Notes under the pieces: generated by a model | What the model saw: the letters and a program-made list of their open reading frames with translations, nothing else | Database searches by the model: none | What the model was told of the DNA's origin: nothing | Part shown: positions 16,260-27,553 of the stretch, one piece after another | Layout of the letters: the number at the start of each line of letters is the position of its first letter | Position numbering within the stretch: the stretch's first letter is position 1 | Assembly: GCA_963709405.1 (NCBI GenBank) | Contig: CAVPXM010000063.1 | Location: forward strand, 64,001 to 128,000 | Direction: 5' to 3' | DNA: 64,000 bases | From: an uncultured Nitrososphaerales archaeon | GTDB taxonomy: Archaea; Thermoproteota; Nitrososphaeria; Nitrososphaerales; Nitrososphaeraceae | Translations under genes and position numbers: made by a program

Positions 16260-16949
16260 CTATGCTGCTGCCTCAGCAGTCTGTTCACTGTCCTCAGGCA
16301 TTACCTGAATTTCTTTAGCCTCTTCAATTGCCCTTGATTGAGGTGTGGAGATCAACTTGGTTTTCTTAATTCCTATATGACGAAGTGACGCGATCTTCTT
16401 CGCCTCAGCCAGGAGATCGGCACCCATTTTTCCAAGGGTCACCTCCTGGACAAATTGATCTACCGTTAGTTTTGCGATATTAGCAGTCAACTGACTATGT
16501 GCTACCATGCGAATTTGATGCTTCTTGGAAGAGTTCAATCTTCTCTGAGTAAATGCTACTACTTCAACTCTAAAGGTGTAACCGTCTGTAGTCATGTAAT
16601 CGTGTATAAAACTTATCATAGAACTGCCTCTTCTTATTAGGCTTCTCAAGAACTCTTTTGCATACTCATGACCTTTGAAAACCGTGGTGGCTGAACCCTC
16701 AGCAATCTTCTCAATTTTAACGAAAACTTTTGTTTGATGTTGTGTTGGATCTTGTTTTAAGATGTCAAACATGGTATTTTCGAGTACTCGACCCTTCGCA
16801 CCATTCTGATCAGTAATCGGAACGTAATTTAGCGCACCGCCACCAAAAGCAGAAGGCGAATTAACGATTATCCATTGTTTGTCACGCCATTTATCTCTAA
16901 CTCGACCTCCCCTTTTACCTCCCTTTACCATCAAATCTACATTTTGCAT
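16260..16949 (-). CDS. rps3ae: 30S ribosomal protein S3Ae (eS1)
   Basis: RVRDKWRDKQW, GRVLE, FKGHEYAKEFLRSLIRRGSS, TTDGY. Confidence 0.95.
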   Translation of the reverse strand: MQNVDLMVKGGKRGGRVRDKWRDKQWIIVNSPSAFGGGALNYVPITDQNGAKGRVLENTMFDILKQDPTQHQTKVFVKIEKIAEGSATTVFKGHEYAKEFLRSLIRRGSSMISFIHDYMTTDGYTFRVEVVAFTQRRLNSSKKHQIRMVAHSQLTANIAKLTVDQFVQEVTLGKMGADLLAEAKKIASLRHIGIKKTKLISTPQSRAIEEAKEIQVMPEDSEQTAEAAA

Positions 16950-17639
16950 CCAAAATATAAGTTGTTGGAAAAGTGTCGCGAAAGCCTGAGAAGCATCATT
17001 AACTAGACGAGAACTGAACTTTGATGAGTAGCTGGGGGTAACCAGCCCTCTCTAGTCTAAGACCGTTCTTGAATCCTTTATCTTCCTTTAGTTTCTTCAA
17101 TGACTAGGCCCTTTAGTAGATTCATTGTATGTATTGCATAAGTCCCCTTGTGGTTCTCTATATAACAACTGCGATGGACAGAACTTTTCGCTCAACTTTT
17201 CATGGTAATTCCAGAATATACTAAACTATTTTCTCTTATTTCAATTCATATTATTCATTTTCGTCCTTGTTGGGTAGTCGAATACAGGGTTCTAGTACAT
17301 TTCACATTCACCAATAACATTCGTAAGGTATTTTTGTACCACTGAAATTGTGTCTTAATGAATCGAGTAAGGTTTATCAGCACATAAACCAGGAGAAAAA
17401 TCGTTACCTAAGGGCTTCCATTTGCCAACACTAAAAATCAGGCAACAGGACGTCTTCACTTTAATCCCTAACAGCAGTCTATCTAGGGAGCTAGCAGTAA
17501 AGATACAATATTGCATGACGCTCTCGCCAATCATCCTGACAATAAATTAATTCTTGAATTAGCTACTGATTTAACAAAAAAGGAGAGATTGGACGGGTTT
17601 GATGTCCGCTTAATTCTGTGCGCCGGTCTCAGTTTTTCA

Positions 17640-20600
17640 TTAAGCACAACCTACTGCGGCTGCTGCAGCTGCTGCAGCTGCCGGCGAAGCTCCAGCTCGC
17701 TGTTGCTGCTGCTGCGGCTGCTGCAGGCTGTACCAGCTGCCGATGCTCCACTAGCTGCTGCGCTTGAGGCTGCTGACGCTGCGGCTGCTGCGAGCTGCTG
17801 GCGAAGCGCCTGCTACTGTAGTGGCTGCTGCGGCTGCCGCTGCGGCTGCTGCGGCTGTACCAGCTGCCGAGGCTCCACTAGCTGCTGCGCTTGAAGCGGC
17901 TCCTGCTGCTGCTGCTGGCTGGCTGCCTGGCGATCCTCCTGCTGCTGCTGCTGCGGGCTGCTGCCGGCTGCTGCAGCGGATGCCGTTGGTGAACCTCCAG
18001 CAGATGAAGCTGCCTGCTGCGGCTGCAGATGCCACGCCACCTATAGATGCTCCGGCTGCGACTGCGGATGAGGCTGCACTCGCCGCTGCCAATGCCGCTG
18101 ATGCACTACCACCTGCTGAAGATGCGGCTGCTGCGGCGGATGCTGCTGGTGGTACCACCAGCTGGCTGCGGCTGCTGCGGCTGCTGCTGCTGGCCGGCGA
18201 TGCTCCTGCTGCTGCTGCTGCTGCTGCGGCTGCTGAGGCAACTCCGGTTGGTGAGGCTCCATTAGCTGCTGCGCTTGAAGCTGCTGCTGCGGCTGCTGCT
18301 GCGGCTGCTGATGAAGCTCCTGCTGCAGAAGCGGCTGCTGCGGACGCTGCTGCGCAGGTACCACCTGGTGAAGCTCCAGCTGCTGCGGGCTGCTGCCGGC
18401 TGCTGCTGAAGCAACTCCGGATACAGATGCTCCACTAGCTGCTGCACTTGAGGCTGCTGACGCTGCGGCTGCTGCTGCCGATGTGGATGAGCCAGCCTTT
18501 TGCGCAGCAGACGATGCGGCTGAGGATGCTGCTGTGGCTGCTGCTGAAGAGATTGGGGATTTCAAAAGTGATGACGCTGGCGGCTGCTGCTGTTGCCGCT
18601 GTCGAAATTGAGGAGGATATAGTGGATGCGGCTGCCGATGAGGCTCCAGCTGCAGTTGCTGCTGCTGCGGCTGCTGTGGCAACTCCTGAGGCTGAGGCTC
18701 CACGAGCTGCTGCACTTGCTGCTGCTGCGGCTGCTGCGGCTCCGGCTCCTGGTGAAGCTCCAGCTGCACTTGCTGCTGCTGTCGGCTGCTGCGGCTGCTG
18801 CTCCACCAGGTGAAGCTCCTGCTGCTGCTGCGGCTGCTGCGACTGCTGCTGGCTGTTCCAGCTGCCGATGCTCCACTAGCTGCTGCGCTCGAAGCGGCTG
18901 ACGGCAGCTGCTGCGGCTGCCGCAGATGAAGATCCAGCTGAAGATGCGGCTGCTGCGGCTGCTGCAGAGGTGGCTCCACCTGCTGCGGCTGCTGCGGCTG
19001 CTGCGGCTGCTGCAGGTGAGGCTCCAGCTGCTGTTGCTGCTGAGGCTGCTGGAGATGCTGCACTTGCTGCTGAGGCTCCACTAGCTGCTGCACTTGCTGC
19101 TGCTGCGGCTGCTGCGGCTCCGGCTGCTGGTGAAGCTCCAGCTGGCACTTGCTGCTGCTGCGGCTGCTGGCGGCTGCTGCTCCACCAGGTGAAGCTCCGG
19201 CTGCTGTTGCGGCTGCTGCGGCTGCTGCGGCTGTTCCAGCTGCCGATGCTCCACTAGCTGCTCGCGCTCGAAGCAGCTGCTGAAGCTGGCCTGCGCTGGC
19301 TGCTGCTGAAGATCCAGCTGAAGATGCGGCTGCTGCGGCTGCTGCAGAGGTGGCTCCACCTGCTGCGGCTGCTGCCGGCTGCTGCGGCTGCTGCAGGTGA
19401 GGCTCCAGCTGCTGCTGCTGCTGAGGCTGCTGCAGATGCTGCACTTGCGGCTGAGGCTCCACTCAGCTGCTGCAGCTTGCTGCTGCTGCGGCTGCTGCGG
19501 CTCCGGCTGCTGGTGAAGCTCCAGCTGCACTTGCTGCTGCTGCGGCTGCTGCCGGCTGCTGCTCCACCAGGCGAAGCTCCAGCTGCAGTTGCGGCTGCCT
19601 GCTGGCTGCTGCGGCTGTTCCAGCTCGCCGATGCTCCACTAGCTGCTGCACTGCTGCGAGCTAGCTGCTGAAGCTGCTGCTGCGGCTGCTGCTGAAGATC
19701 CAGCTGAAGATGCGGCTGCTGCGGCTGCTGCAGAGGTGGCTCCACCTGCTGCGGCTGCTGCCGGCTGGCTGCGGCTGCTGCTGGTGAAGCTCCAGCTGCC
19801 TGCTGCTGCTGAGGCTGCTGGCAGATGCTGCACTTGCGGCTGAGGCTCCACTAGCTGCTGCACTTGCTGCTGCTGCGGCTGCTGCGGCTCCGGCTGCTGG
19901 TGAAGCTCCAGCTGCACTTGCTGCTGCTGCCGGCTGCTGCGGCTGCTGCTCCACCAGGTGAAGCTCCAGCTGCGGTTGCGCGCTGCTGCGGCTGCTGCGG
20001 CTGTTCCAGCTGCCGATGCTCCACTAGCTGCTGCGCTTCAAGCTAGCTGCTGGAAGCTGCTGCTGCGGCTGCTGCTGAAGATCCAGCTGAAGATGCGGCA
20101 GCTGCCGGCTGCTGCAGAGGTGGCTCCACCTGCTGCGGCTGCTGCGGCTGCTGCTGGCTGCTGCAGGTGAGGCTCCAGCTGCTGTTGCTGGCTGAGGCTG
20201 CTGCTGCGGCTGCTGCTGCGGCTCCATTATCAGCTGCGCTTGAAGCGGCTGCTGCGCGCTGCTGCTGCTGGCTGCGGTGAAGCTCCAGCTGCGGTGGCGG
20301 CAGTTGCGGCTGCTGCGGCTGCTGCTGCACTTGGAGTTGCACCCGAAGCAACTAGTGATGAGGCTGCCGATGCGCCTGCACTTGCTGGTAACAACCCTTG
20401 GCTAGTTGCTGTTTGTGCCGCTGAGGTTGCATTAGAAAGTTGTGCTGGGTCTAATTTCTGAGTTGATAAGGCACTCTGTAAGGTTGATTGGAACTTTTCA
20501 GTTGATATGTTTTTGGCTGGCTAAAGTTTGCCCTGGTGGTGCAAAGCCAGGTGCTGTTGCATTTTGTTCCGATGAGAGGGCGGCGGCATTTTGAATAGGT

Positions 20601-21421
20601 CCAGGTGCTGTTGCATTTTGGGGTTGAGCTCCAGTTGCATTTTCAATTGGTGCAAAGCCAGGTGCTGTTGCATTTTGGGGTTGAGCTCCAGTTGCATTTT
20701 CAATTGGTGCAAAGCCAGGTGCTGTTGCATTTTGGGGTTGAGCTCCAGTTGCATTTTCAGGAGCAGCCAATTGTTGTGGGAAGTTTGTTGCTGGTCCGGT
20801 TAGGTTTTCAGGACTGGTGGCTGCTCTGGTGCTGGTGGTTGTTCCGGAAGGGTTTCAGGCTCCGGTTGGTTTTCAGGAGCGTGTCTGCTCTAGTTGCGCT
20901 GGTGGTTGTTCTGGAAGACCAGTTGCTGGTCCGGTTAGGTTTTCAGGAGGTGTCTGCTCTGTCGCTGGTGGTTGTTCTGGAAGACCAGTTGTTGGTCCGG
21001 TTAGGTTTTCAGGAGGTGTCTGCTCTGTCGCTGGTGGTTGTTCTGGTTGGCTAGTGTTATTTTCAGTTGAGGGTTGTCCGCTATTACCAGTTGAGGGTTG
21101 TTCGTTATTTTGAGTTGAGGGTTGAGGAATGATCGTGGGCAATGATCCTGAAGGGTTGTTTTCAGTTGACGGTTGTCCGCTATTATCAGTTGAGGGTTGT
21201 CCGCTATTATCAGTTGAGGGTTGTTGTGAAGGATTATTTCCGTTCGTATTATCATTAGTCGAGGAGTCCTGAGATCCGGAACTTCCACCTGAATCTTTCT
21301 TACTCTTTGAGAAAGATACTTGATATGTACTCAGAGGAAGTATCCCTGACAGAACGACGATTGAAACTATTACGACCGCAAATAACTGCTTATTTTTGGA
21401 TCTAAATGGATCGTAAAACAC
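17640..21421 (-). CDS. Large secreted repetitive protein (~1,260 aa): signal peptide, Pro/Gln/Asn/Thr stalk and ~900 aa poly-Ala/Gly/Ser repeats; frameshifted in this assembly
   Basis: Reconstructed by hand across frames: GTG-FYDPFRSKNKQLFAVVIVSIVVLSGIL (signal), PSTDNSGQ, PEQPPATEQTPPENLTG and ENATGAQPQNATAPGF repeats, ...QLSNATSAAQTATSQGLLPASAGASAASS..., (GASP/GASA-An) arrays, ending AAAAVGCA-TAA at 17640-17642. Confidence 0.75.
17650..20340. repeat. GCA/GCC (Ala-codon) low-complexity array with a ~384-nt higher-order period
   Basis: The marker gatccagctgaagatgcggc recurs at 18931, 19311, 19697 and 20080 (spacings 380, 386, 383). Confidence 0.92.
20540..21230. repeat. Coding tandem repeats of 57 bp (19 aa), 66 bp (22 aa) and 24 bp (8 aa)
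   Basis: ggtgcaaagccaggtgctgttgc at 20649 and 20706; ggtccggttaggttttcagg at 20928 and 20994; cagttgagggttgtccgctattat-like copies across 21060-21225. Confidence 0.9.
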
Positions 21422-22440
21422 AGTTCCAGGTAGGCACCGTAATATAAATATGATTCGCCAATTCTGCAATACACTAGGATGCTAAATTAGACGCGTTGGT
21501 TTCGAAATTAGATTTATAATAACTGTCGTAATAGCACTAAAATATACAGGAATACTTACAATACCCGAACAAATGCCCCTAGGCACTGTCTTTTATGCAT
21601 GAGTTTAACATAACAGCAGTGACATGCCGAACGTATCGCAAATTAATCATCGCATCCTGCCTTTCTCGGAATAAACTATATTGTTTAGGGTTACGATGCG
21701 AATCATTCACGTACTAATTCCAATTCCAATTATCGCGACAAAAATCATATCTTCGTCTACTTTTTTGAAATGCAAATGCTTGGACGTGGCTACCAATTTA
21801 TTGTATGACCTATGCGGCGAATGCCAACGTTCAATCAATATTATCTCCACTTTGACAAGTTGGAATGAAATGTGCTCGAAAAGGGTTTTTGCATGTTAAT
21901 GCAGGTATACGCGGTCTTTATGACTTGCAAATATTCTTACCTACAGCTCGTTGACGATTGCCTTCCACACGTTGATAATCCAGGATTCTGAAAGGCCACG
22001 CCTGTGCAGGAAACTGAATCCGTCATAACAAGGATTGCAACAATAAACGACTAGGCGGTAAGTACCAAACCCCGCCTGTGCATGATACTAATCCTTGTAG
22101 CTAGACGCTATTAATGCCTATATCCACTTTACAGATTGTGCAACATCATTGCCATTATCCAGTAGAGTGGCACTAAGAACGAGTACTGTGTTAGCCTTCT
22201 CTCCACACCAGTTAACGTAGACGGAATGTATACGTTTAGTGATTTTACCTCTATGATCTCTATATAACTTGGATACACTTTTACGTAACGGTTATGCATT
22301 GGGTTAGTTATGTGAAAAATCGGAGTATGGAAGTGTACGAAGGCCTACTCGCTTCAAATATACAAGGAAAAAGACCAAAAGTGTAATTAGATGCGAATAA
22401 TTGTCAATTTACTAGATGTAAACCAACGGACAAAGAAACT

Positions 22441-22605
22441 CTCGAATAGGTTCTTAGGTCAAATTACAACGGTTCACCCTCGATATCTAAACATTACTTC
22501 TTTCAGGATGTTTCAATCCGATATTAGTCAAATTACAATACAACAACACACACACCCACAATCTCAGATAGGAGTGTTTCAATCCTATGTTAGTCAATTT
22601 ACAAC
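22441..22605 (-). CRISPR. Orphan CRISPR mini-array: three 30-nt repeats (one degenerate) and two spacers of 39 and 36 nt
   Basis: Repeats at 22576-22605 (minus strand GTTGTAAATTGACTAACATAGGATTGAAAC), 22510-22539 and, degenerate, 22441-22470. Canonical ATTGAAAC 3' end. No cas genes in the window. Confidence 0.75.
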
Positions 22606-22804
22606 CTCAACCACTTTTAGGATCGGTTCCTAGATGGTCATGCATATAGTATTGTCTGCAAGTGTTTTGACTGCTTCAACTATGCGTGCCTTTACCTAAG
22701 CAACGAGGCCTATACACTTTGTCTTTCTTGCTAAATGTCTATACATGACTTCATAAGAAGCAGAAAGAAGGAATCTACATACCTAATTGCAGCCATTCTC
22801 AAAT

Positions 22805-24706
22805 TCACAACATATCATATTGTTCTGTAAATTCTCTAAATAATTGGTGTTTCTTTATTTGGTGCCGTTCTTCGGTACTTAGTAAGGCTGCAAGCGTTTT
22901 GACCGCTTCAGCTATGTGTGTACCATTGTTCAGCATCACACATTCTGCACGCTGGCCCATTATCGCATCAGTTATTTCTGCGCGACTCCTAAGGCCACTT
23001 TCTGTCAAGCTCTCTAGTATCTGGGTGGCTAATATGACAGGGATATGTGCAGCCTCGCACAAACATAGTATATCTTCCTGAACGAATGCCAAATTTTCAA
23101 ACCCCACTTCTACAGCCAGATCTCCCCTAGCAATTAAAATCGCGAATTTTGGCAATTCAAGTCCGGCGATAAGTATTTTAGCCAGATTATGGATGGAATC
23201 AACTGTTTCTATCTTTGCGACTATACCGAAATCAGGCCTGTTTAATTCAAACAGCTTCTTGCGTAATTCATCAATATCTTCAGGTTTTTGAACGAAACTT
23301 AATCCCACCATATTCGCATTATTGACAACAAATTCCAAGTTTCCAAGGTCTTCTTGTGTCAGTGCAGGCATTCTAATAGAAGAGTCTGGAAAGTTTATAC
23401 CTTTGTGCGACTTGATTTCAGCCATCACACCTTTTGGCGAAACGATTTCCAACTCAAGATATTGGTCATTCGATGACCTCACTATGGCTTCAATTTTTCC
23501 ATCATCTATGAATACCCTGTGGCCTATCATAACACGGTCGAGTACCTCTGGATGGGTACAACTAATGCCGGCAGGAGTACCATTTGCTTTATTAGCGCTG
23601 TGACCTAACTTTGCATTATCTCTGTAAAGGCGCAGCGTGTTTCCTGCTTCTACATTAATTTCAATTGCTTGTGCCGTAATCCTACCTATGGTAAATGAAC
23701 ATTTACTATCGTTTTCAACGGCACTGTTTGACTGACATTCTAATTTTATACCCTCTTTCAAGTATGCGGTGTGCTCCAGTCCAATCCGAACTTTGGTAGG
23801 ACTTATCCTTTCAAGGACCGTGAACGTGCGCAGCCGTTCATCCCTTGCATCCTTGAAGGTTATTTTCTGGCCTATCTTCAAACTACCTAACCCACCGTAT
23901 TCAATTTTTGATATTGCGATAACAAAGCTTGATGGTGTCCCTTCCAGACTGATTAACTCAGTTTGGCTTGCTTCACTGTCTAGGAACCCTTCAACAAATC
24001 GCACAGGGCGGCCGTGAAGATCCTTTAAAACGGAAATTTTTAGTGGACTAACTTTAAGCTCCATTGGACCCGTACGAATTTTTGGACCTCCTAAATCCAT
24101 TAGGATTATACATTGATGTCCAATTTCCTTACCACGTTCAACCAATCGTTGTTCTGCGATACGGATTGATTCGATTAGTAGCTTCCACTCCCTCTTCGAG
24201 TTGTGAGCACAATTAATACGAGCGATATCAAGACCGTTCTCGAGTAGCTGCTCAATTAGATCATATTGGAAAATATCTGAGGCATCAAGCGTTACCATAA
24301 TACGTGTTCTTCTTCCCTTCCCTGGAGATCCAAACAATAATTCAGTCCGATTACCCAACGTCAAACTACCCCATTGAGAAGTAACCTTACACAATTTGTC
24401 ATGTTTCGTAGGTGTTATTCCAAAATGTTTTAGAACTTGTTCGATACTGGTTAGTACATTACTTTCAATCATTCCTAAGGAAGAAAGGCCCTCTTCAGCT
24501 AATCGCAGCTGCAAATCTGACAAATCATGCTTTCTTAGTGCCAAATAGCACAACAGATTATCACGACTACATCTCTGTTCACTTCTATTTGACTCAAATT
24601 TGATCTTACTTTGTGTTTTTTCGGCATTTTCTATGGTGTTAACATAGAGCGAATGAAGCTCTCGACCAAGGTTTTCAAAGTCTTCACTCCGTTGGACTGT
24701 AGCCAT
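22805..24706 (-). CDS. pyk: Pyruvate kinase, long form with N-terminal extension and enlarged B domain
   Basis: RTRIMVT, ARINCAH, DLGGPKIRT, AKIET, ARGDLAVE, ATQILES, RAEITD, CVMLN. Confidence 0.92.
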   Translation of the reverse strand: MATVQRSEDFENLGRELHSLYVNTIENAEKTQSKIKFESNRSEQRCSRDNLLCYLALRKHDLSDLQLRLAEEGLSSLGMIESNVLTSIEQVLKHFGITPTKHDKLCKVTSQWGSLTLGNRTELLFGSPGKGRRTRIMVTLDASDIFQYDLIEQLLENGLDIARINCAHNSKREWKLLIESIRIAEQRLVERGKEIGHQCIILMDLGGPKIRTGPMELKVSPLKISVLKDLHGRPVRFVEGFLDSEASQTELISLEGTPSSFVIAISKIEYGGLGSLKIGQKITFKDARDERLRTFTVLERISPTKVRIGLEHTAYLKEGIKLECQSNSAVENDSKCSFTIGRITAQAIEINVEAGNTLRLYRDNAKLGHSANKANGTPAGISCTHPEVLDRVMIGHRVFIDDGKIEAIVRSSNDQYLELEIVSPKGVMAEIKSHKGINFPDSSIRMPALTQEDLGNLEFVVNNANMVGLSFVQKPEDIDELRKKLFELNRPDFGIVAKIETVDSIHNLAKILIAGLELPKFAILIARGDLAVEVGFENLAFVQEDILCLCEAAHIPVILATQILESLTESGLRSRAEITDAIMGQRAECVMLNNGTHIAEAVKTLAALLSTEERHQIKKHQLFREFTEQYDML

Positions 24707-25411
24707 CTCTAATGACTTCTATGCCAACTATTTGTTATGTCTTTTACTCAACGTATTTTCATCTTCAGGAATTTCCTAGTACCTAGTTCAGATCATCTGC
24801 ATCAATAACCAGAGTGTTTCCAATTTCCAAACCTACCTACTCAGGTTGGATCTCGATAATCCCATTTAATCCTACCATTCGAACTCTAACAGCCAGTTCA
24901 GAGTTATTAGTCCGAAACACTAGAACCTGTAAATTCCGATCTGGATGCATTCAAACTGAACATCGAATCATTCCTACCGTACCAAGCAACGCACCAAAAT
25001 AGGATACTTCTTACTACAAAAATTCCTTCAAATAACTTTCATCAAGGATTAGGTCATCGTACCCAACCTAAACTATCATCGCAGATTGTGATGGCACACG
25101 ATAGGTTTATACGCCTAAGCCTTGGGTGTTGTGTTCATGTCTTGTTAGTATTGTCTATAACCAATGTATCTTCGACTAACTGTTTTACAGTAGTGGATGC
25201 ATTCTTTTATTCTGTATTACTATGATTCAGTATATTTTATAATCAATTCCTCCCTAAGACATCTATCCTCTGTATTGGTGCTAATACACTCTCGATTATC
25301 AATGGCAATTGCATTCAATATAAATAATAAATGCTAATAACAATTTTACTATACAAGGCAGCACAGTGCAACACTGATAACTTAATTTTGTTTTAAATGT
25401 AAAATTCATAA

Positions 25412-25669
25412 TTGATAATAGAGAAAATGTTTGAAAGATATACATGGGTATGCTCAACATGCGGACAAGGCCTTACGAGAAAGAGTAGCGCCAGGAGACA
25501 CAACGATAATCTTCACTTTGGACAAAGCAGTATAATCAGACCAGTTGGAAGGTCAAATGGTAAAATCCCCCCCACAATTAATCCTTTACTATTCCAACTG
25601 CTATTAAGGTGCCCATTATGGCGAGTATCTTTTGGCGAAAGTTATTCAATTCCTATAAAAAAAAGATAG
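25412..25669 (+). CDS. C2H2-type zinc-finger protein (possibly truncated)
   Basis: WVCSTCGQGLTRKSSARRHNDNLH = C-x2-C-x12-H-x4-H. Confidence 0.6.
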   Translation: MIIEKMFERYTWVCSTCGQGLTRKSSARRHNDNLHFGQSSIIRPVGRSNGKIPPTINPLLFQLLLRCPLWRVSFGESYSIPIKKR

Positions 25670-26408
25670 TTATAATAAAGAGTTGAAGGCATTTTTGATT
25701 AATGTTAATAATAACATGTTATTATTTATTTTATGTTAATTATTTTAATAATTTCAGAGAACTAAGTTCACTTAGTAAGTCAGCCGTACATTTACAGGAA
25801 GTGGTCGATAGAAAGGAGAACAAGAGGAGTTACCCGGGACTGCAGGAGACTCGGCAATCTCATGATCTCGCTGCATCTTTCATGCCCCAATTCATTTTGT
25901 ATTTTCTTTAAACATTTGTTAACTTGTAAAAGACGTATCTAGTAGATAATGGTATAATAACGAGAATTAGAGTTGTAACTATGCTAGCTTTTGAGATATT
26001 GAAACCAACAAAAATACAAGTACTATGATAATGATAAATGCAGTGAATAATATGCCAAATACCCTTTTAAAATTTACCTGTGACACAAATCTACCTATCA
26101 TTCATTGTTTAAAGTCTTTGTCCGAGCCAACACTCAAAGTCGAACGTTTTAACTATTTAAAAAGATCCTGATTGACTGAGATGAGTCAGATACCATCTTA
26201 TAATATTCGGTAATTAGATAAATAGATCAATCATATTGTCGAATCTTGATTTTGCAAATTTTTCAACTCAATCCTCACTAAAGGCAGAAAGGACAATACA
26301 TACAAATTTGCCCTTGCGAGATTCTTAGTTGAATATTCACACGAACAGAACAAATCAGATATTGAGATCAAGATAAAGAATAATGAAACTACTATCTAAA
26401 ATATTCTG

Positions 26409-26660
26409 TCATTGCCAAGCACCAGCTGCTGTTTCTTTAACTTCCATGATCCATTCACATTTTATTCCTATTTTCTGATGATTTTTTTCAACTGCATCTT
26501 TGCTTGGAGCATCCAATATACAATACACTCTGTCTGCTTCGGGATTGAAAAGAATATTCACATGGGTAACACCAAATTCATCTTTTGGTGATATTTGTAT
26601 TTGCTTTAAAGTATCCTCAGTAACTCCTTTCATAGGATGGACATCAAGGAATTTTGGCAA
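26409..26660 (-). CDS. DUF4242 / SCO4226-like small metal-binding protein
   Basis: MPKFLDVH...GVTH...VYCILDAPSKDAVEKNH...CEWIMEV. Confidence 0.82.
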   Translation of the reverse strand: MPKFLDVHPMKGVTEDTLKQIQISPKDEFGVTHVNILFNPEADRVYCILDAPSKDAVEKNHQKIGIKCEWIMEVKETAAGAWQ

Positions 26661-27091
26661 TTAACTTTAGTTACTAAATTTTGTATTTAAGTTTGGCTAT
26701 TATTTTTTGATGTAGTTAAAAGATGTAGTAAAAAGACCGTGGTATATGCTTTGAAATTTGGTAAGGAACTACCACACTTTAAAGATCAGTTCCAGTATCG
26801 TGTTGATGAAATATACAGTCTTGAGTATTCAGGAGAAAACTAGGGAGGATATACTTATGCCTATCACCAACTAGACTTTCCATATTTGAGCCACTTGTCC
26901 TAGGCTAGCCGGTATGGCTTATTGTAACCAGCTTGGTCCTTGTTTGCGTATCATTTCATACGATCGCCATATGTGTTTATTTATTTCTGTATATCAACTG
27001 TGAAGCACCAGACGTTTTATAGGAGTTGTACCTGAAATCGCAGTTACAAGTGAGCCCAAAAATATTGCATCCGCTCTAACAATAATTATTA

Positions 27092-27553
27092 TTAATCCCA
27101 ACCAGCAATGTTCTTTTCTGCCATTATTCTTGTAGGTCTTGTTCGTACAAGCACTGCACCTTCGCTACTATTCCTTCTACTGTGAGCTTCAGCATTTTTC
27201 CTACCCATATATCGTTCTGCTATTTTACTGGCCCATTTTGAAACCTCTTTTTGGCTGTAAGTGTGTATTTTTGCACTTCCAAATATTGTTACAAAAGAAA
27301 ACGGTCGTGTCTGATCGTCTATACAATTACTTACCTTATTATTACGCTGAATATAGGTTGCTTTGACTGATGTGCTATCAGTGGTAAATATGTTATCTCC
27401 TATTCTACTCCTTCTTTTGCTATTCTCATTATCCACTACAAACCAGATTGGAACAACATGAGAACGTCCATCTTTTCTCAGTGTAGCGAGTTTTCCTGTG
27501 AATGTACCTTGCATAACAGATCTCGCAATTTCCTCTTTGCACATTTCTGTCAT
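27092..27553 (-). CDS. PPOX-class (putatively F420-dependent) oxidoreductase
   Basis: TGKLATLRKDGRSHVVPIWF...SVKA..IQRNNKV...IAERYMG; start chosen at MTEM. Confidence 0.82.
   Translation of the reverse strand: MTEMCKEEIARSVMQGTFTGKLATLRKDGRSHVVPIWFVVDNENSKRRSRIGDNIFTTDSTSVKATYIQRNNKVSNCIDDQTRPFSFVTIFGSAKIHTYSQKEVSKWASKIAERYMGRKNAEAHSRRNSSEGAVLVRTRPTRIMAEKNIAGWD

What the first reader, a model, noticed from the sequence alone, without database searches (positions are those of the whole stretch)
17640..21421. Hidden ~1,260-aa secreted poly-alanine (silk/antifreeze-like) protein in a thaumarchaeon
Seen: the ~30 fragmentary ORFs here join into one minus-strand gene. It starts with a signal-like N-terminus (KNK + LFAVVIVSIVVLSGIL) and a ~300-aa P/Q/N/T stalk. 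A unique junction (STEKFQSTLQSALSTQKLDPAQLSNATSAAQTATSQGLLP) reads without stops only in the Ala frame. About 900 aa of 15-20-aa units follow, such as GASPAAAAAAAAAAA, GGATSAAAAAAASSA and GASAAGTAAAAAAAATAA, ending AAAAVGCA*. Known: poly-Ala blocks with Gly/Ser spacers characterise spidroins and fibroins, and very Ala-rich helices characterise fish type I antifreeze proteins. Inference: an extracellular structural polymer (fibre, biofilm matrix, sheath) or a tightly packed alpha-solenoid, with S-P as N-cap and G as C-cap. I recognise no described archaeal family like it.
Basis: partly seen in the sequence, partly recalled or inferred. Interest (0 to 1): 0.85.

Follow-up and report, generated by a model that had tools for sequence, protein, structure and literature searches.

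The report
Secreted poly-alanine repeat protein, archaeal
A soil ammonia-oxidising archaeon carries a real gene for a very long secreted protein that is almost two-thirds alanine; it looks shattered only because the assembly has stray extra bases, and what the protein does is still unknown.

Summary
Window 21421-17640 (minus strand) reads as one gene of about 1,249 codons. It has a signal peptide, a 268-aa P/Q/N/T/S stalk with 13 N-glycosylation sequons, a unique junction, and a 903-aa region that is 64% Ala, 17% Ser and 9.5% Gly. That region is built on four 384-nt units and ends in VGCA.

About 44 frame breaks split the gene, 38 of them a single extra base. They look like assembly errors. 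Short-read contigs from three other soil studies omit one base at all 10 listed in-gene places, each within 4 nt of a predicted break (0 of 100,000 random placements do as well).

The Ala frame is the coding frame. A paralogue on the same contig has the same architecture plus a C-terminal head domain, and it is one unbroken ORF in three related genomes.

The family was found only in one uncultured Nitrososphaeraceae genus. It has no Pfam, PDB or literature match.

Function is inferred, not shown. My best reading is a secreted, helix-rich, uncharged spacer or matrix protein of the cell envelope. A silk-like fibre is not excluded. A solenoid or antifreeze reading has no support. The organism is an ammonia oxidiser, since amoA is present.

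The parts
21443..21450 (-). TATA-like box TATTTATA, 21 nt upstream of the start codon
   Evidence: Invariant across G000, G004, G002 and G005 in the upstream alignment. Its role as a promoter is inferred.
21419..21421 (-). GTG start codon
   Evidence: The GTG is conserved in all four genomes. The ATG used 30 nt downstream in the other three is AAG here. An 80-aa metagenome protein, P0108, starts with the same MFYDPFRSKNKQ.
21308..21421 (-). Signal peptide, residues 1-38: basic n-region, hydrophobic core L13-L30, S-F-S before KSKKD
   Evidence: Read from the sequence. The same pattern (A/S-x-A/S, then K-S-K-K) occurs in paralogues and in other secreted relatives. No signal-peptide predictor was available.
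20506..21307 (-). Low-complexity stalk rich in P, T, Q, S and N, built of short tandem repeats. Holds 13 N-x-S/T sequons and 4 frame errors.
   Evidence: Tandem Repeats Finder: 24-nt units x2.6 and x2.5, a 66-nt unit x3.9, a 57-nt unit x2.8. Composition and sequons. Shifts at 20899, 20882, 20826 and 20521.
20395..20505 (-). Unique junction STEKFQSTLQSALSTQKLDPAQLSNATSAAQTATSQGLLP
   Evidence: Contiguous with the Ala frame. Conserved in the G004 orthologue and alignable with the junction of paralogue 2.
17643..20394 (-). Ala-rich region, 903 aa: A 63.7%, S 16.6%, G 9.5%. It has 44 poly-Ala runs of 4-12 residues, 7 charged residues in all and no aromatics.
   Evidence: About 40 of the 44 frame errors lie here.
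18640..20130 (-). Four tandem units of about 384 nt (128 aa), starting at 20130, 19746, 19360 and 18980
   Evidence: Anchor spacing and unit alignment. The G004 orthologue also has four GGATS anchors.
18480..18635 (-). Less repetitive island inside the Ala region (STISSSIS ... SLLKSPISS ... AAQKAGSSTS)
   Evidence: Conserved in the G004 orthologue (SAISSSIS ... SLLKSPVSS ... AAQNAGASS).
17640..17654 (-). C-terminus V-G-C-A and TAA stop
   Evidence: The G004 orthologue ends AAAAAAVGCRK and stop at the same point, so the C-terminal Cys is conserved.
17576..17581 (-). Oligo-T tract about 60 nt after the stop, a candidate archaeal terminator
   Evidence: Read. G004 has a T-rich tract at a similar distance. 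Its function is inferred.

Best explanation
Window 21421-17640 (minus strand) is one genuine, native gene. About 44 single-base errors in the assembly fragment it, mostly extra G or C. This part has odds of about 0.85.

The gene encodes a Sec-exported protein of about 1,249 aa:
- a cleavable signal peptide;
- a basic KSKKD start to the mature chain;
- a rapidly evolving stalk rich in P, Q, N, T and S that is probably N-glycosylated;
- a conserved junction;
- about 900 aa of nearly uncharged Ala/Ser/Gly sequence, in which poly-Ala runs of 5-12 residues are broken every 15-22 residues by G/S/T(P) motifs;
- a conserved C-terminal Cys.

The mechanism is inferred, at odds of about 0.5. The Ala runs form short alpha-helices. 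Strung together they make a long, protease-poor, uncharged spacer or brush outside the cell, as part of the cell envelope or extracellular matrix.

In the sister gene on the same contig, the same module lies between the signal peptide and stalk and a beta-rich head domain. Other Nitrososphaeraceae carry that head domain at the end of Ser/Thr/Pro/Asn-rich stalks. The gene studied here is the headless version with an expanded repeat.
For: Errors rather than decay:
- Repeat units differ by 15 singleton inserted columns against 1 deleted. The inserted bases are G 9, C 4, T 1, A 1. In the three closest units there are 14 insertions and 1 deletion against 12 substitutions.
- 38 of the 44 shifts are extra bases.
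- One search listed 12 of 63 indel rows from contigs of four runs in three other studies. All 12 are 'one base left out'. The 10 that lie inside the gene each fall within 4 nt of a predicted extra base (0 of 100,000 random placements).
- The frame-tracking programme calls no shift in the Ala region of an intact relative.

Coding frame and reality of the gene:
- Paralogue 2 has the same N-terminus, stalk, junction and Ala region, and is one unbroken ORF in G001 (878 aa stop to stop), G002 (865 aa) and L033 (859 aa).
- In G001 the Ala frame has 0 stops. The other two sense frames have 34 and 42.
- Third codon positions follow the AT-rich genome. GCA is 61% of Ala codons here, and TCA and GGA are the preferred Ser and Gly codons. 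The genome's long ORFs use GCA 39% and GCT 30%. Amino-acid content therefore explains the GC island, not foreign origin.
- The orthologue in G004 has the same gene order (pyruvate kinase, this gene, ribosomal protein S3Ae), four units and the VGC end.
- Orthologous N-termini follow pyruvate kinase in G002 and G005.
- The upstream TATA-like box and GTG are conserved in 4 genomes.
- Contigs from an RNA library lie on the gene body and also lack the extra bases. This is a weak hint of expression.

Export:
- The n-h-c layout has small residues at -1 and -3, as in relatives.
- There are 14 sequons, none of them in the Ala region.

Helices and spacer role:
- AlphaFold2 on the intact paralogue draws 25 helices of 11-26 residues across residues 189-688.
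- Pro sits directly before 8 of 42 Ala runs and after 0 of 42.
- Passages of PMC9620824 state that poly-Ala favours alpha-helix and that G and P act as breakers.
- The head domain sits C-terminal to varied low-complexity or Ala-rich stalks in relatives. It is present in 91 of 201 family genomes.
Against: - No read from the genome's own sample was seen. The contigs laid are 90-99% alike, come from other samples, and may in part be other strains or repeat units.
- No genome has this gene, as opposed to its paralogue, as one unbroken ORF. G004 is also frame-broken (36 shifts). In G002 and G005 the contig ends inside the stalk.
- Why the errors concentrate in Ala-coding DNA is unexplained.
- The AlphaFold2 model is low confidence (mean pLDDT 39.1, pTM 0.32, only 3 sequences in the alignment) and is of the paralogue, not of this protein.
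- No anchor to the cell was identified.
- Signal-peptide cleavage and glycosylation are read by eye.
- There is no functional, proteomic or strand-specific expression evidence.
- The neighbouring genes are housekeeping genes and say nothing about function.
Confidence: 0.6

Rival explanations
1. Self-assembling fibre or sheet. The poly-Ala blocks stack into beta-sheet crystallites or helical bundles, and the protein polymerises into a fibre, sheath or biofilm scaffold.
For: There are 44 poly-Ala runs, mean length 8 and maximum 12, punctuated by Gly and Ser, in tandem units within a secreted protein. A single conserved C-terminal Cys could link chains. The protein has no head domain, so the repeat itself may be the functional part.
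Against: The spacers are 3-6 residues, not long Gly-rich blocks, and there is no GGX or GPGXX motif. Pfam found no family on the three pieces of this gene that I scanned, the N-terminal 198 aa and two Ala-frame pieces. In the paralogue the same kind of sequence lies between stalk and head, which fits a spacer. AlphaFold2 draws helices, not strands, though at low confidence.
Confidence: 0.18
2. A true pseudogene. The frameshifts are real in this strain and the gene is decaying.
For: The window as given has about 44 breaks. The orthologue in G004 and both copies of paralogue 2 in G000 and G004 are also broken. No reads from the strain itself were seen.
Against: Extra bases outnumber missing bases 38 to 6, and G/C insertions at singleton positions equal or exceed substitutions between repeat units. 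That is not the pattern of natural decay. Other samples' contigs lack exactly these bases. By eye the breaks are not at shared positions in G000 and G004. No stop codon lies in the corrected path. Paralogue 2 is intact in three genomes.
Confidence: 0.07
3. A compact alpha-solenoid or an antifreeze-like ice-binding protein made of packed Ala helices.
For: Ala is 64%. Helix-length segments of 15-22 residues are separated by G/S(P) turns, with Pro only on the N-terminal side of the runs.
Against: No 11-residue period: the top autocorrelation lags are 3, 125, 16 and 38. AlphaFold2 gives no compact fold (pTM 0.32, pLDDT mostly below 50). There are almost no large hydrophobic residues to form a core.
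Confidence: 0.05
4. Not a protein at all. It is a GC-rich satellite, or it is read on the opposite strand, which also has an Ala-rich frame.
For: The plus strand carries long Ala-rich open stretches, for example 224 aa here and 530 aa in G001.
Against: Only the minus-strand Ala frame joins a conserved signal peptide and stalk, and in the paralogue a head domain with 131 database relatives. The antisense frame has 9 stops in G001, against 0 in the sense Ala frame. Codon third positions fit the minus-strand frame.
Confidence: 0.02

Closest known systems
Paralogue 2 of the same genome (G000:C63:207204-209983, minus strand). It is intact in G001 (P0001, 852 aa), G002 and L033.
   Same: Same signal peptide and KSKK motif, a low-complexity stalk with sequons, a homologous junction (..ASSL(I/V)..G(A)TP..), and an Ala/Ser/Gly region with GAS(P) breaks.
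   Different: It carries a 160-aa C-terminal beta-rich head domain preceded by two Cys. Its Ala region is shorter (428 aa, 56.5% Ala) and not organised in four near-identical 128-aa units. The studied gene ends in VGCA with no head.
Head-domain surface proteins of Nitrososphaeraceae (for example P0003, P0004, P0025, P0030, P0070)
   Same: N-terminal signal peptide with an A-x-A/K-K-type junction, a long low-complexity stalk, and a secreted architecture.
   Different: Their stalks are rich in Ser, Thr, Pro or Asn, or are charged Ala-rich helices, not poly-Ala. All carry the head domain, which the studied gene lacks.
Spider spidroins and wild-silkmoth fibroins (recalled from general knowledge, not from a call)
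   Same: Secreted proteins with tandem units that contain poly-Ala blocks of about 5-12 residues flanked by Gly and Ser.
   Different: No match to any Pfam family on the three pieces of the gene that I scanned. Spacers are 3-6 residues rather than long Gly-rich blocks. There is no Tyr or Gln. The host is an archaeon, and the protein has an N-terminal glycosylatable stalk. The resemblance is in composition only.
Fish type I antifreeze proteins (recalled)
   Same: More than 60% Ala and helical propensity.
   Different: They are short (tens to about 200 aa) with an 11-residue Thr periodicity. No such period is present here. No ice-related evidence exists.
Streptococcal antigen I/II stalk, where an Ala-rich region pairs with a Pro-rich region (recalled)
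   Same: An Ala-rich segment and a Pro-rich segment in one surface protein. In the paralogue these hold out a distal head.
   Different: No sequence similarity was found. The A-region there is a charged heptad-type repeat, not poly-Ala. The domain order and the LPXTG anchoring differ.

Membership tests
Genus-specific poly-Ala secreted protein family (defined here by paralogue 2 and its intact orthologues) | N-terminal signal peptide followed by a K-S-K-K-type motif | tested here: met
   The window N-terminus matches family members at E 1e-11 to 5e-27 in same-genus genomes. The motif is visible.
Genus-specific poly-Ala secreted protein family | Conserved junction leading in frame into an Ala/Ser/Gly region several hundred residues long | tested here: met
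   The junction and Ala frame are contiguous. The junction is similar to that of paralogue 2, judged by eye. No formal alignment score was computed.
Genus-specific poly-Ala secreted protein family | C-terminal 160-aa head domain | tested here: not met
   The gene ends in VGCA and a stop, as does its G004 orthologue. G000 has a single head-domain match, at paralogue 2.
Spidroin / silk fibroin | Conserved non-repetitive N- and C-terminal domains (Pfam spidroin families, recalled) | tested here: not met
   Pfam found 0 families on the N-terminal 198 aa and on two Ala-frame pieces. The C-terminus is only VGCA.
Spidroin / silk fibroin | Poly-Ala blocks alternating with long Gly-rich (GGX or GPGXX) blocks | tested here: not met
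   Motif spacings are 15-22 residues and the breaks are 3-6 residues. Gly is only 9.5%.
Type I antifreeze protein | 11-residue periodicity of Thr or polar residues on an Ala helix | tested here: not met
   Autocorrelation of non-Ala positions peaks at lags 3, 125, 16 and 38, not at 11.
Type I antifreeze protein | Ice binding or thermal hysteresis | not testable with these tools
   This needs the purified protein.
Sec-exported archaeal glycoprotein | Signal peptide with n-h-c regions and small residues at -3 and -1 | tested here: inconclusive
   The pattern was read by eye: R7/K9/K11, hydrophobic L13-L30, and S-F-S before K39. No predictor was available.
Sec-exported archaeal glycoprotein | N-x-S/T sequons actually glycosylated | not testable with these tools
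   14 sequons are present, 13 in the stalk, 1 in the junction and 0 in the Ala region. Occupancy is unknown.

The most novel reading that the evidence does not exclude
A genus of soil ammonia-oxidising archaea makes a silk-like material. In this reading the headless 900-aa poly-Ala protein is secreted, is joined tail to tail through its conserved C-terminal Cys, and self-assembles by stacking of poly-Ala helices or beta-sheets into an extracellular fibre, sheath or hydrogel. That structure would form the cell's outer layer or biofilm matrix. It would be an archaeal structural polymer with no known counterpart.
Probability: 0.18. Interest if true: 0.85.

Novelty: new variant of a known kind. 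Interest (0 to 1): 0.58.

Why it matters
Homorepeat proteins are rare in archaea and bacteria. Passages of PMC9620824 read put them at under 1% of proteins. A 900-aa secreted domain that is 64% alanine is an extreme case, and I found nothing like it in print (their limits are stated under Tried and rejected). It belongs to a small family confined, among the genomes searched, to one uncultured Nitrososphaeraceae genus of soils.

If the protein forms part of the envelope or matrix, it bears on how soil ammonia oxidisers build their surface, attach, and resist proteases and drying. It would also be an unusual natural poly-Ala material.

There is a practical point too. Such genes are lost from catalogues. 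Short-read assemblies break inside them. The two more contiguous assemblies, G000 and G004, span them but are riddled with frame errors. The protein databases hold only fragments. Annotations of these genomes therefore miss or shred the family.

Tried and rejected
Database searches that found nothing on the Ala part:
- A whole-protein word search with the intact paralogue P0001 found nothing. The low-complexity words swamp it.
- A search with the window's junction against longer proteins found nothing.
- The ESM Atlas gave no usable hit.
- The first scan of genome contigs with the window N-terminus found no relative.

Structure:
- AlphaFold2 of the head domain with 6 sequences reached only mean pLDDT 43.9. 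I ran no fold search on it, because a low-confidence model gives meaningless matches. A deeper alignment would have been better.
- A profile of 46 head-domain proteins found no PDB sequence (best E 0.47) and no Pfam family for the domain itself.
- Complex prediction with four copies of an 80-aa in-frame Ala piece returned 'no answer'. I take it as neither support nor evidence against.

Reads:
- The RNA-library contigs gave no cover of the flanks 17202-17603 and 21624-21824.
- Several bins within the gene had no cover.
- Joints skipping 341 to 2,030 bases appear in short-read contigs.
- I draw nothing from any of these. Copy number in other strains may differ, or short-read contigs may collapse the repeats.
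- 51 further indel rows and 192 substitution rows were not shown to me.

Other:
- The bacterial-type promoter and terminator scan is not relevant to archaea.
- Rfam and tRNA scans found only two tRNAs elsewhere in the window.
- I considered whether a methylation motif (GCWGC) or the tandem-repeat context causes the error hot spot. I could not test this. The platform of the assembly is unknown to me.
- Literature: no paper holds 'alanine-rich' together with 'Nitrosocosmicus' or with 'ammonia-oxidizing archaea'. None of the 15 listed papers had any poly-alanine term. One search gave only general papers. One search gave general papers on long-read errors, of which I saw only the search listing.
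- Supplements were not consulted.


Full report
What is in the sequence

Window 17640-21421 is a GC island. GC is 0.56-0.67 per kb, against about 0.40 in the flanks and 0.373 for the genome. 51 ORFs of 40 aa or more overlap 17000-22000. On the minus strand the Ala-rich reading hops among all three frames, which carry 18, 38 and 11 stops.

I trained a codon log-odds model on two intact relatives and let a dynamic programme follow the best frame, with penalised one- or two-base steps. From the GTG at 21421 to the TAA at 17642-17640 it finds a path without any stop. The path uses 44 shifts at penalty 6: 38 are one base too many and 6 are one too few. The count is 41-51 shifts over penalties 4-10. 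On an intact relative the same programme calls no shift in the Ala region. It calls only one compensating pair, in the Lys-rich stretch after the signal peptide.

The read-through is 1,249 aa:
- Residues 1-38 look like a signal peptide: basic R7, K9 and K11, hydrophobic L13-L30, and S-F-S before K39.
- Residues 39-306 form the stalk. Over residues 1-306 the composition is P 16%, A 12%, T 11%, Q 10%, S 9.5% and N 9.5%. The stalk is made of 24-, 66- and 57-nt tandem repeats and holds 13 N-x-S/T sequons.
- Residues 307-343 are the unique junction.
- The last 903 aa are A 63.7%, S 16.6%, G 9.5%, T 3.4% and P 3.1%. They contain only 7 charged residues, no aromatics and 2 Cys. There are 44 poly-Ala runs of 4-12 residues (mean 8), and G-A/G/S-S/T motifs recur every 15-22 residues.

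Four units of about 384 nt start at 20130, 19746, 19360 and 18980.

Are the breaks real?

Four lines say they are assembly errors.
1. Among the four units there are 15 singleton inserted columns (G 9, C 4, T 1, A 1) against 1 deleted. In the three closest units there are 14 insertions and 1 deletion against only 12 substitutions. Natural divergence of a coding repeat does not look like that.
2. Extra bases outnumber missing ones 38 to 6.
3. I laid contigs from four public soil runs (three studies, none holding more than 0.16 of the sampled words) on 16800-22800. All 12 indel rows shown, of 63, are 'one base left out'. The 10 inside the gene are at 17725, 19552, 19599, 19603, 19762, 19767, 19930, 19981, 20105 and 20518. 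Each lies within 4 nt of a predicted extra base. 0 of 100,000 random placements do as well.
4. The same kind of damage sits in the Ala-coding part of a paralogue in this genome and in both family genes of genome G004. Meanwhile the paralogue is perfectly open in three other genomes.

Two further observations fit this. The loci with intact copies (L030, L031) have contig names in the k127_/k141_ style. The one with a broken copy (L032, the same contig as L020) is named in the 'contig_N' style. From my own knowledge these are the default names of a short-read and a long-read assembler. That suggests a platform effect, but it is inference, and I do not know how G000 was sequenced. The listing includes a paper whose abstract states that nanopore error is high in low-complexity repeats (PMC11912559; I saw the abstract only).

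Caveat: the contigs come from other samples and are 90-99% alike. They show that the open form exists in nature and that the differences fall exactly at the breaks. They do not show directly that this strain's gene is open.

Which frame and strand?

The opposite strand also has Ala-rich open stretches, as any GCN-rich DNA does. The paralogue at G000:C63:207204-209983 settles the question. It has the same N-terminus (K..LFAV.I.SIVV.SGILPL), a sequon-rich stalk, a similar junction, an Ala/Ser/Gly region and then a 160-aa non-repetitive C-terminal domain.

In G001, G002 and L033 this whole arrangement is one ORF of 878, 865 and 859 aa stop to stop. In G001 the Ala frame has 0 stops, the other sense frames have 34 and 42, and the antisense Ala frame has 9. 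The Gln/Pro frame is thus excluded for the family.

Codon third positions also fit. In the window gene GCA is 61% of Ala codons, and TCA and GGA lead for Ser and Gly. This matches the A/T-ending bias of the genome's long ORFs, which use GCA 39% and GCT 30%. The high GC is simply what 64% alanine costs, and the gene is native.

Relatives and context

The genome has an archaeal amoA (E 5e-118). Related loci are titled Nitrososphaeraceae archaeon.

With the window's N-terminal 198 aa, matches at E 0.01 or better occur in 9 of 41 genomes including G000. That covers 5 of 6 other genomes of the same genus, and all matches better than 1e-10 are in that genus.

The true orthologue is in G004. The gene order there is pyruvate kinase, this gene, ribosomal protein S3Ae, as in the window. 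It also has four GGATS-anchored units, the conserved SLLKSP(I/V)SS island, and the end AAAAAAVGCRK and stop. It too is frame-broken, with 36 shifts. In G002 and G005 the orthologous N-terminus follows pyruvate kinase, but the contig ends inside the stalk repeats. The stalk repeats differ completely between species, so the stalk evolves fast.

Upstream, TATTTATA and the GTG are invariant in four genomes. The other three also have an ATG 30 nt further on, which is AAG here. An independent 80-aa metagenome protein, P0108, shares this and starts MFYDPFRSKNKQ.

Databases hold almost nothing:
- No Pfam family for pieces of the gene or for the intact paralogue.
- An exhaustive HMMER pass over 1.84 billion representatives gave 131 hits at E 0.001 or better. 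Nearly all hit the head domain. Five short N-terminal fragments and two mis-framed Ala fragments also appear.
- No full-length relative of the window gene.

How it probably works

Shown:
- the domain order;
- the composition;
- conservation within a genus;
- a signal-like N-terminus whose S/A-x-S/A then K-K pattern recurs in many secreted relatives;
- sequons confined to the stalk and junction.

Inferred:
- Export by Sec and cleavage after S38.
- N-glycosylation of the stalk.
- An Ala region made of short helices.

For the helices I have only soft evidence. AlphaFold2 on the intact paralogue draws 25 helices of 11-26 residues between residues 189 and 688. Mean pLDDT is only 39.1 (57-70 only around residues 200-330), pTM is 0.32, and there is no compact packing. 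Pro directly precedes 8 of 42 Ala runs and never follows one, as expected for helix N-termini. Published work states that poly-Ala favours helix and that G and P act as breakers (PMC9620824, passages read).

The head domain of the paralogue occurs in 91 of 201 Nitrososphaeraceae genomes and 14 of 18 genera. This count includes two genomes flagged as unpublished, G114 and G054. In the relatives I read, it is C-terminal to Ser/Thr/Pro/Asn-rich or charged Ala-rich stalks. In the paralogue the Ala region therefore occupies the place of a stalk.

I conclude that the Ala module is most likely a long, uncharged, protease-poor spacer or brush outside the cell. The window gene would be a headless version with an expanded repeat, possibly linked through its one conserved C-terminal Cys. 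A self-assembling fibre remains possible. A solenoid or antifreeze has no support: there is no 11-residue period and no compact model.

Comparison with known families

The resemblance to spidroins and fibroins is compositional only. No Pfam family matched the three pieces of this gene that I scanned, and the spacers are 3-6 residues rather than long Gly-rich blocks. Type I antifreeze periodicity is absent. The Ala-rich and Pro-rich stalk of streptococcal antigen I/II is a functional analogy recalled from memory, without sequence similarity. The only real family is the genus-specific one described here, and the window gene lacks its head domain.

I found no paper linking alanine-rich or poly-alanine proteins with these archaea. 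I rate it a new variant of a known kind, namely secreted low-complexity repeat or stalk proteins, with an extreme and undescribed composition.

Limits

- No reads from the source sample were seen.
- No unbroken copy of this exact gene exists in any genome searched.
- Both structure models are low confidence.
- No signal-peptide predictor was available.
- Expression rests on contigs from one RNA library lying on the gene body, which may include DNA carry-over.
- The cause of the error hot spot is unknown.

Noticed in passing
window 22509-22538 and 22575-22604 (+): Two copies of a 30-nt repeat, 66 nt apart, lie between pyruvate kinase and the poly-Ala gene. The 29-mer (up to 3 mismatches) occurs 33 times in G000, against 0 for the reversed control. 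It forms many scattered mini-arrays of 2-4 copies at 66-68-nt spacing. The geometry is CRISPR-like, but the arrays are dispersed. High short-read depth at 22428-22628 fits a multi-copy element.
   Followed up: partly
G000:C63:207204-209983 (-), outside the window: A paralogue of the studied gene with a 160-aa C-terminal head domain. The domain is predicted to be mostly beta at low confidence, and has no Pfam family and no PDB sequence match. It is present in 91 of 201 Nitrososphaeraceae genomes, often in several or tandem copies.
   Followed up: partly
G000:C21:228711-229076 and C21:292137-292427 (+): Two small ORFs with a signal-like N-terminus, a His-rich stretch and then G/S-punctuated poly-Ala runs. 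Each lies upstream of a conserved secreted protein of about 223 aa. Poly-Ala is thus a recurring theme in this genome's secreted proteins.
   Followed up: no
G000:C21:101903-103211 (+): A secreted-looking protein with about 11 near-perfect GGGHDGGGGSGS repeats in a GC-rich island. One apparent frame break lies near 102,440.
   Followed up: no
window 21511 and 22489: Short-read contigs from several runs omit one base at these two places outside the gene. The assembly probably has scattered single-base errors elsewhere too.
   Followed up: no
window 24706-27092: About 2.4 kb with low GC (0.33-0.34 at 25-27 kb) and no ORF of 90 aa or more on either strand. No Rfam match.
   Followed up: no
G000 contig ends, e.g. 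C55:1-5473 and C55:430320-455409: Long stretches with more than 60% GC in a 37% GC genome, not Ala-rich in any frame. They may be foreign or mis-binned sequence.
   Followed up: no
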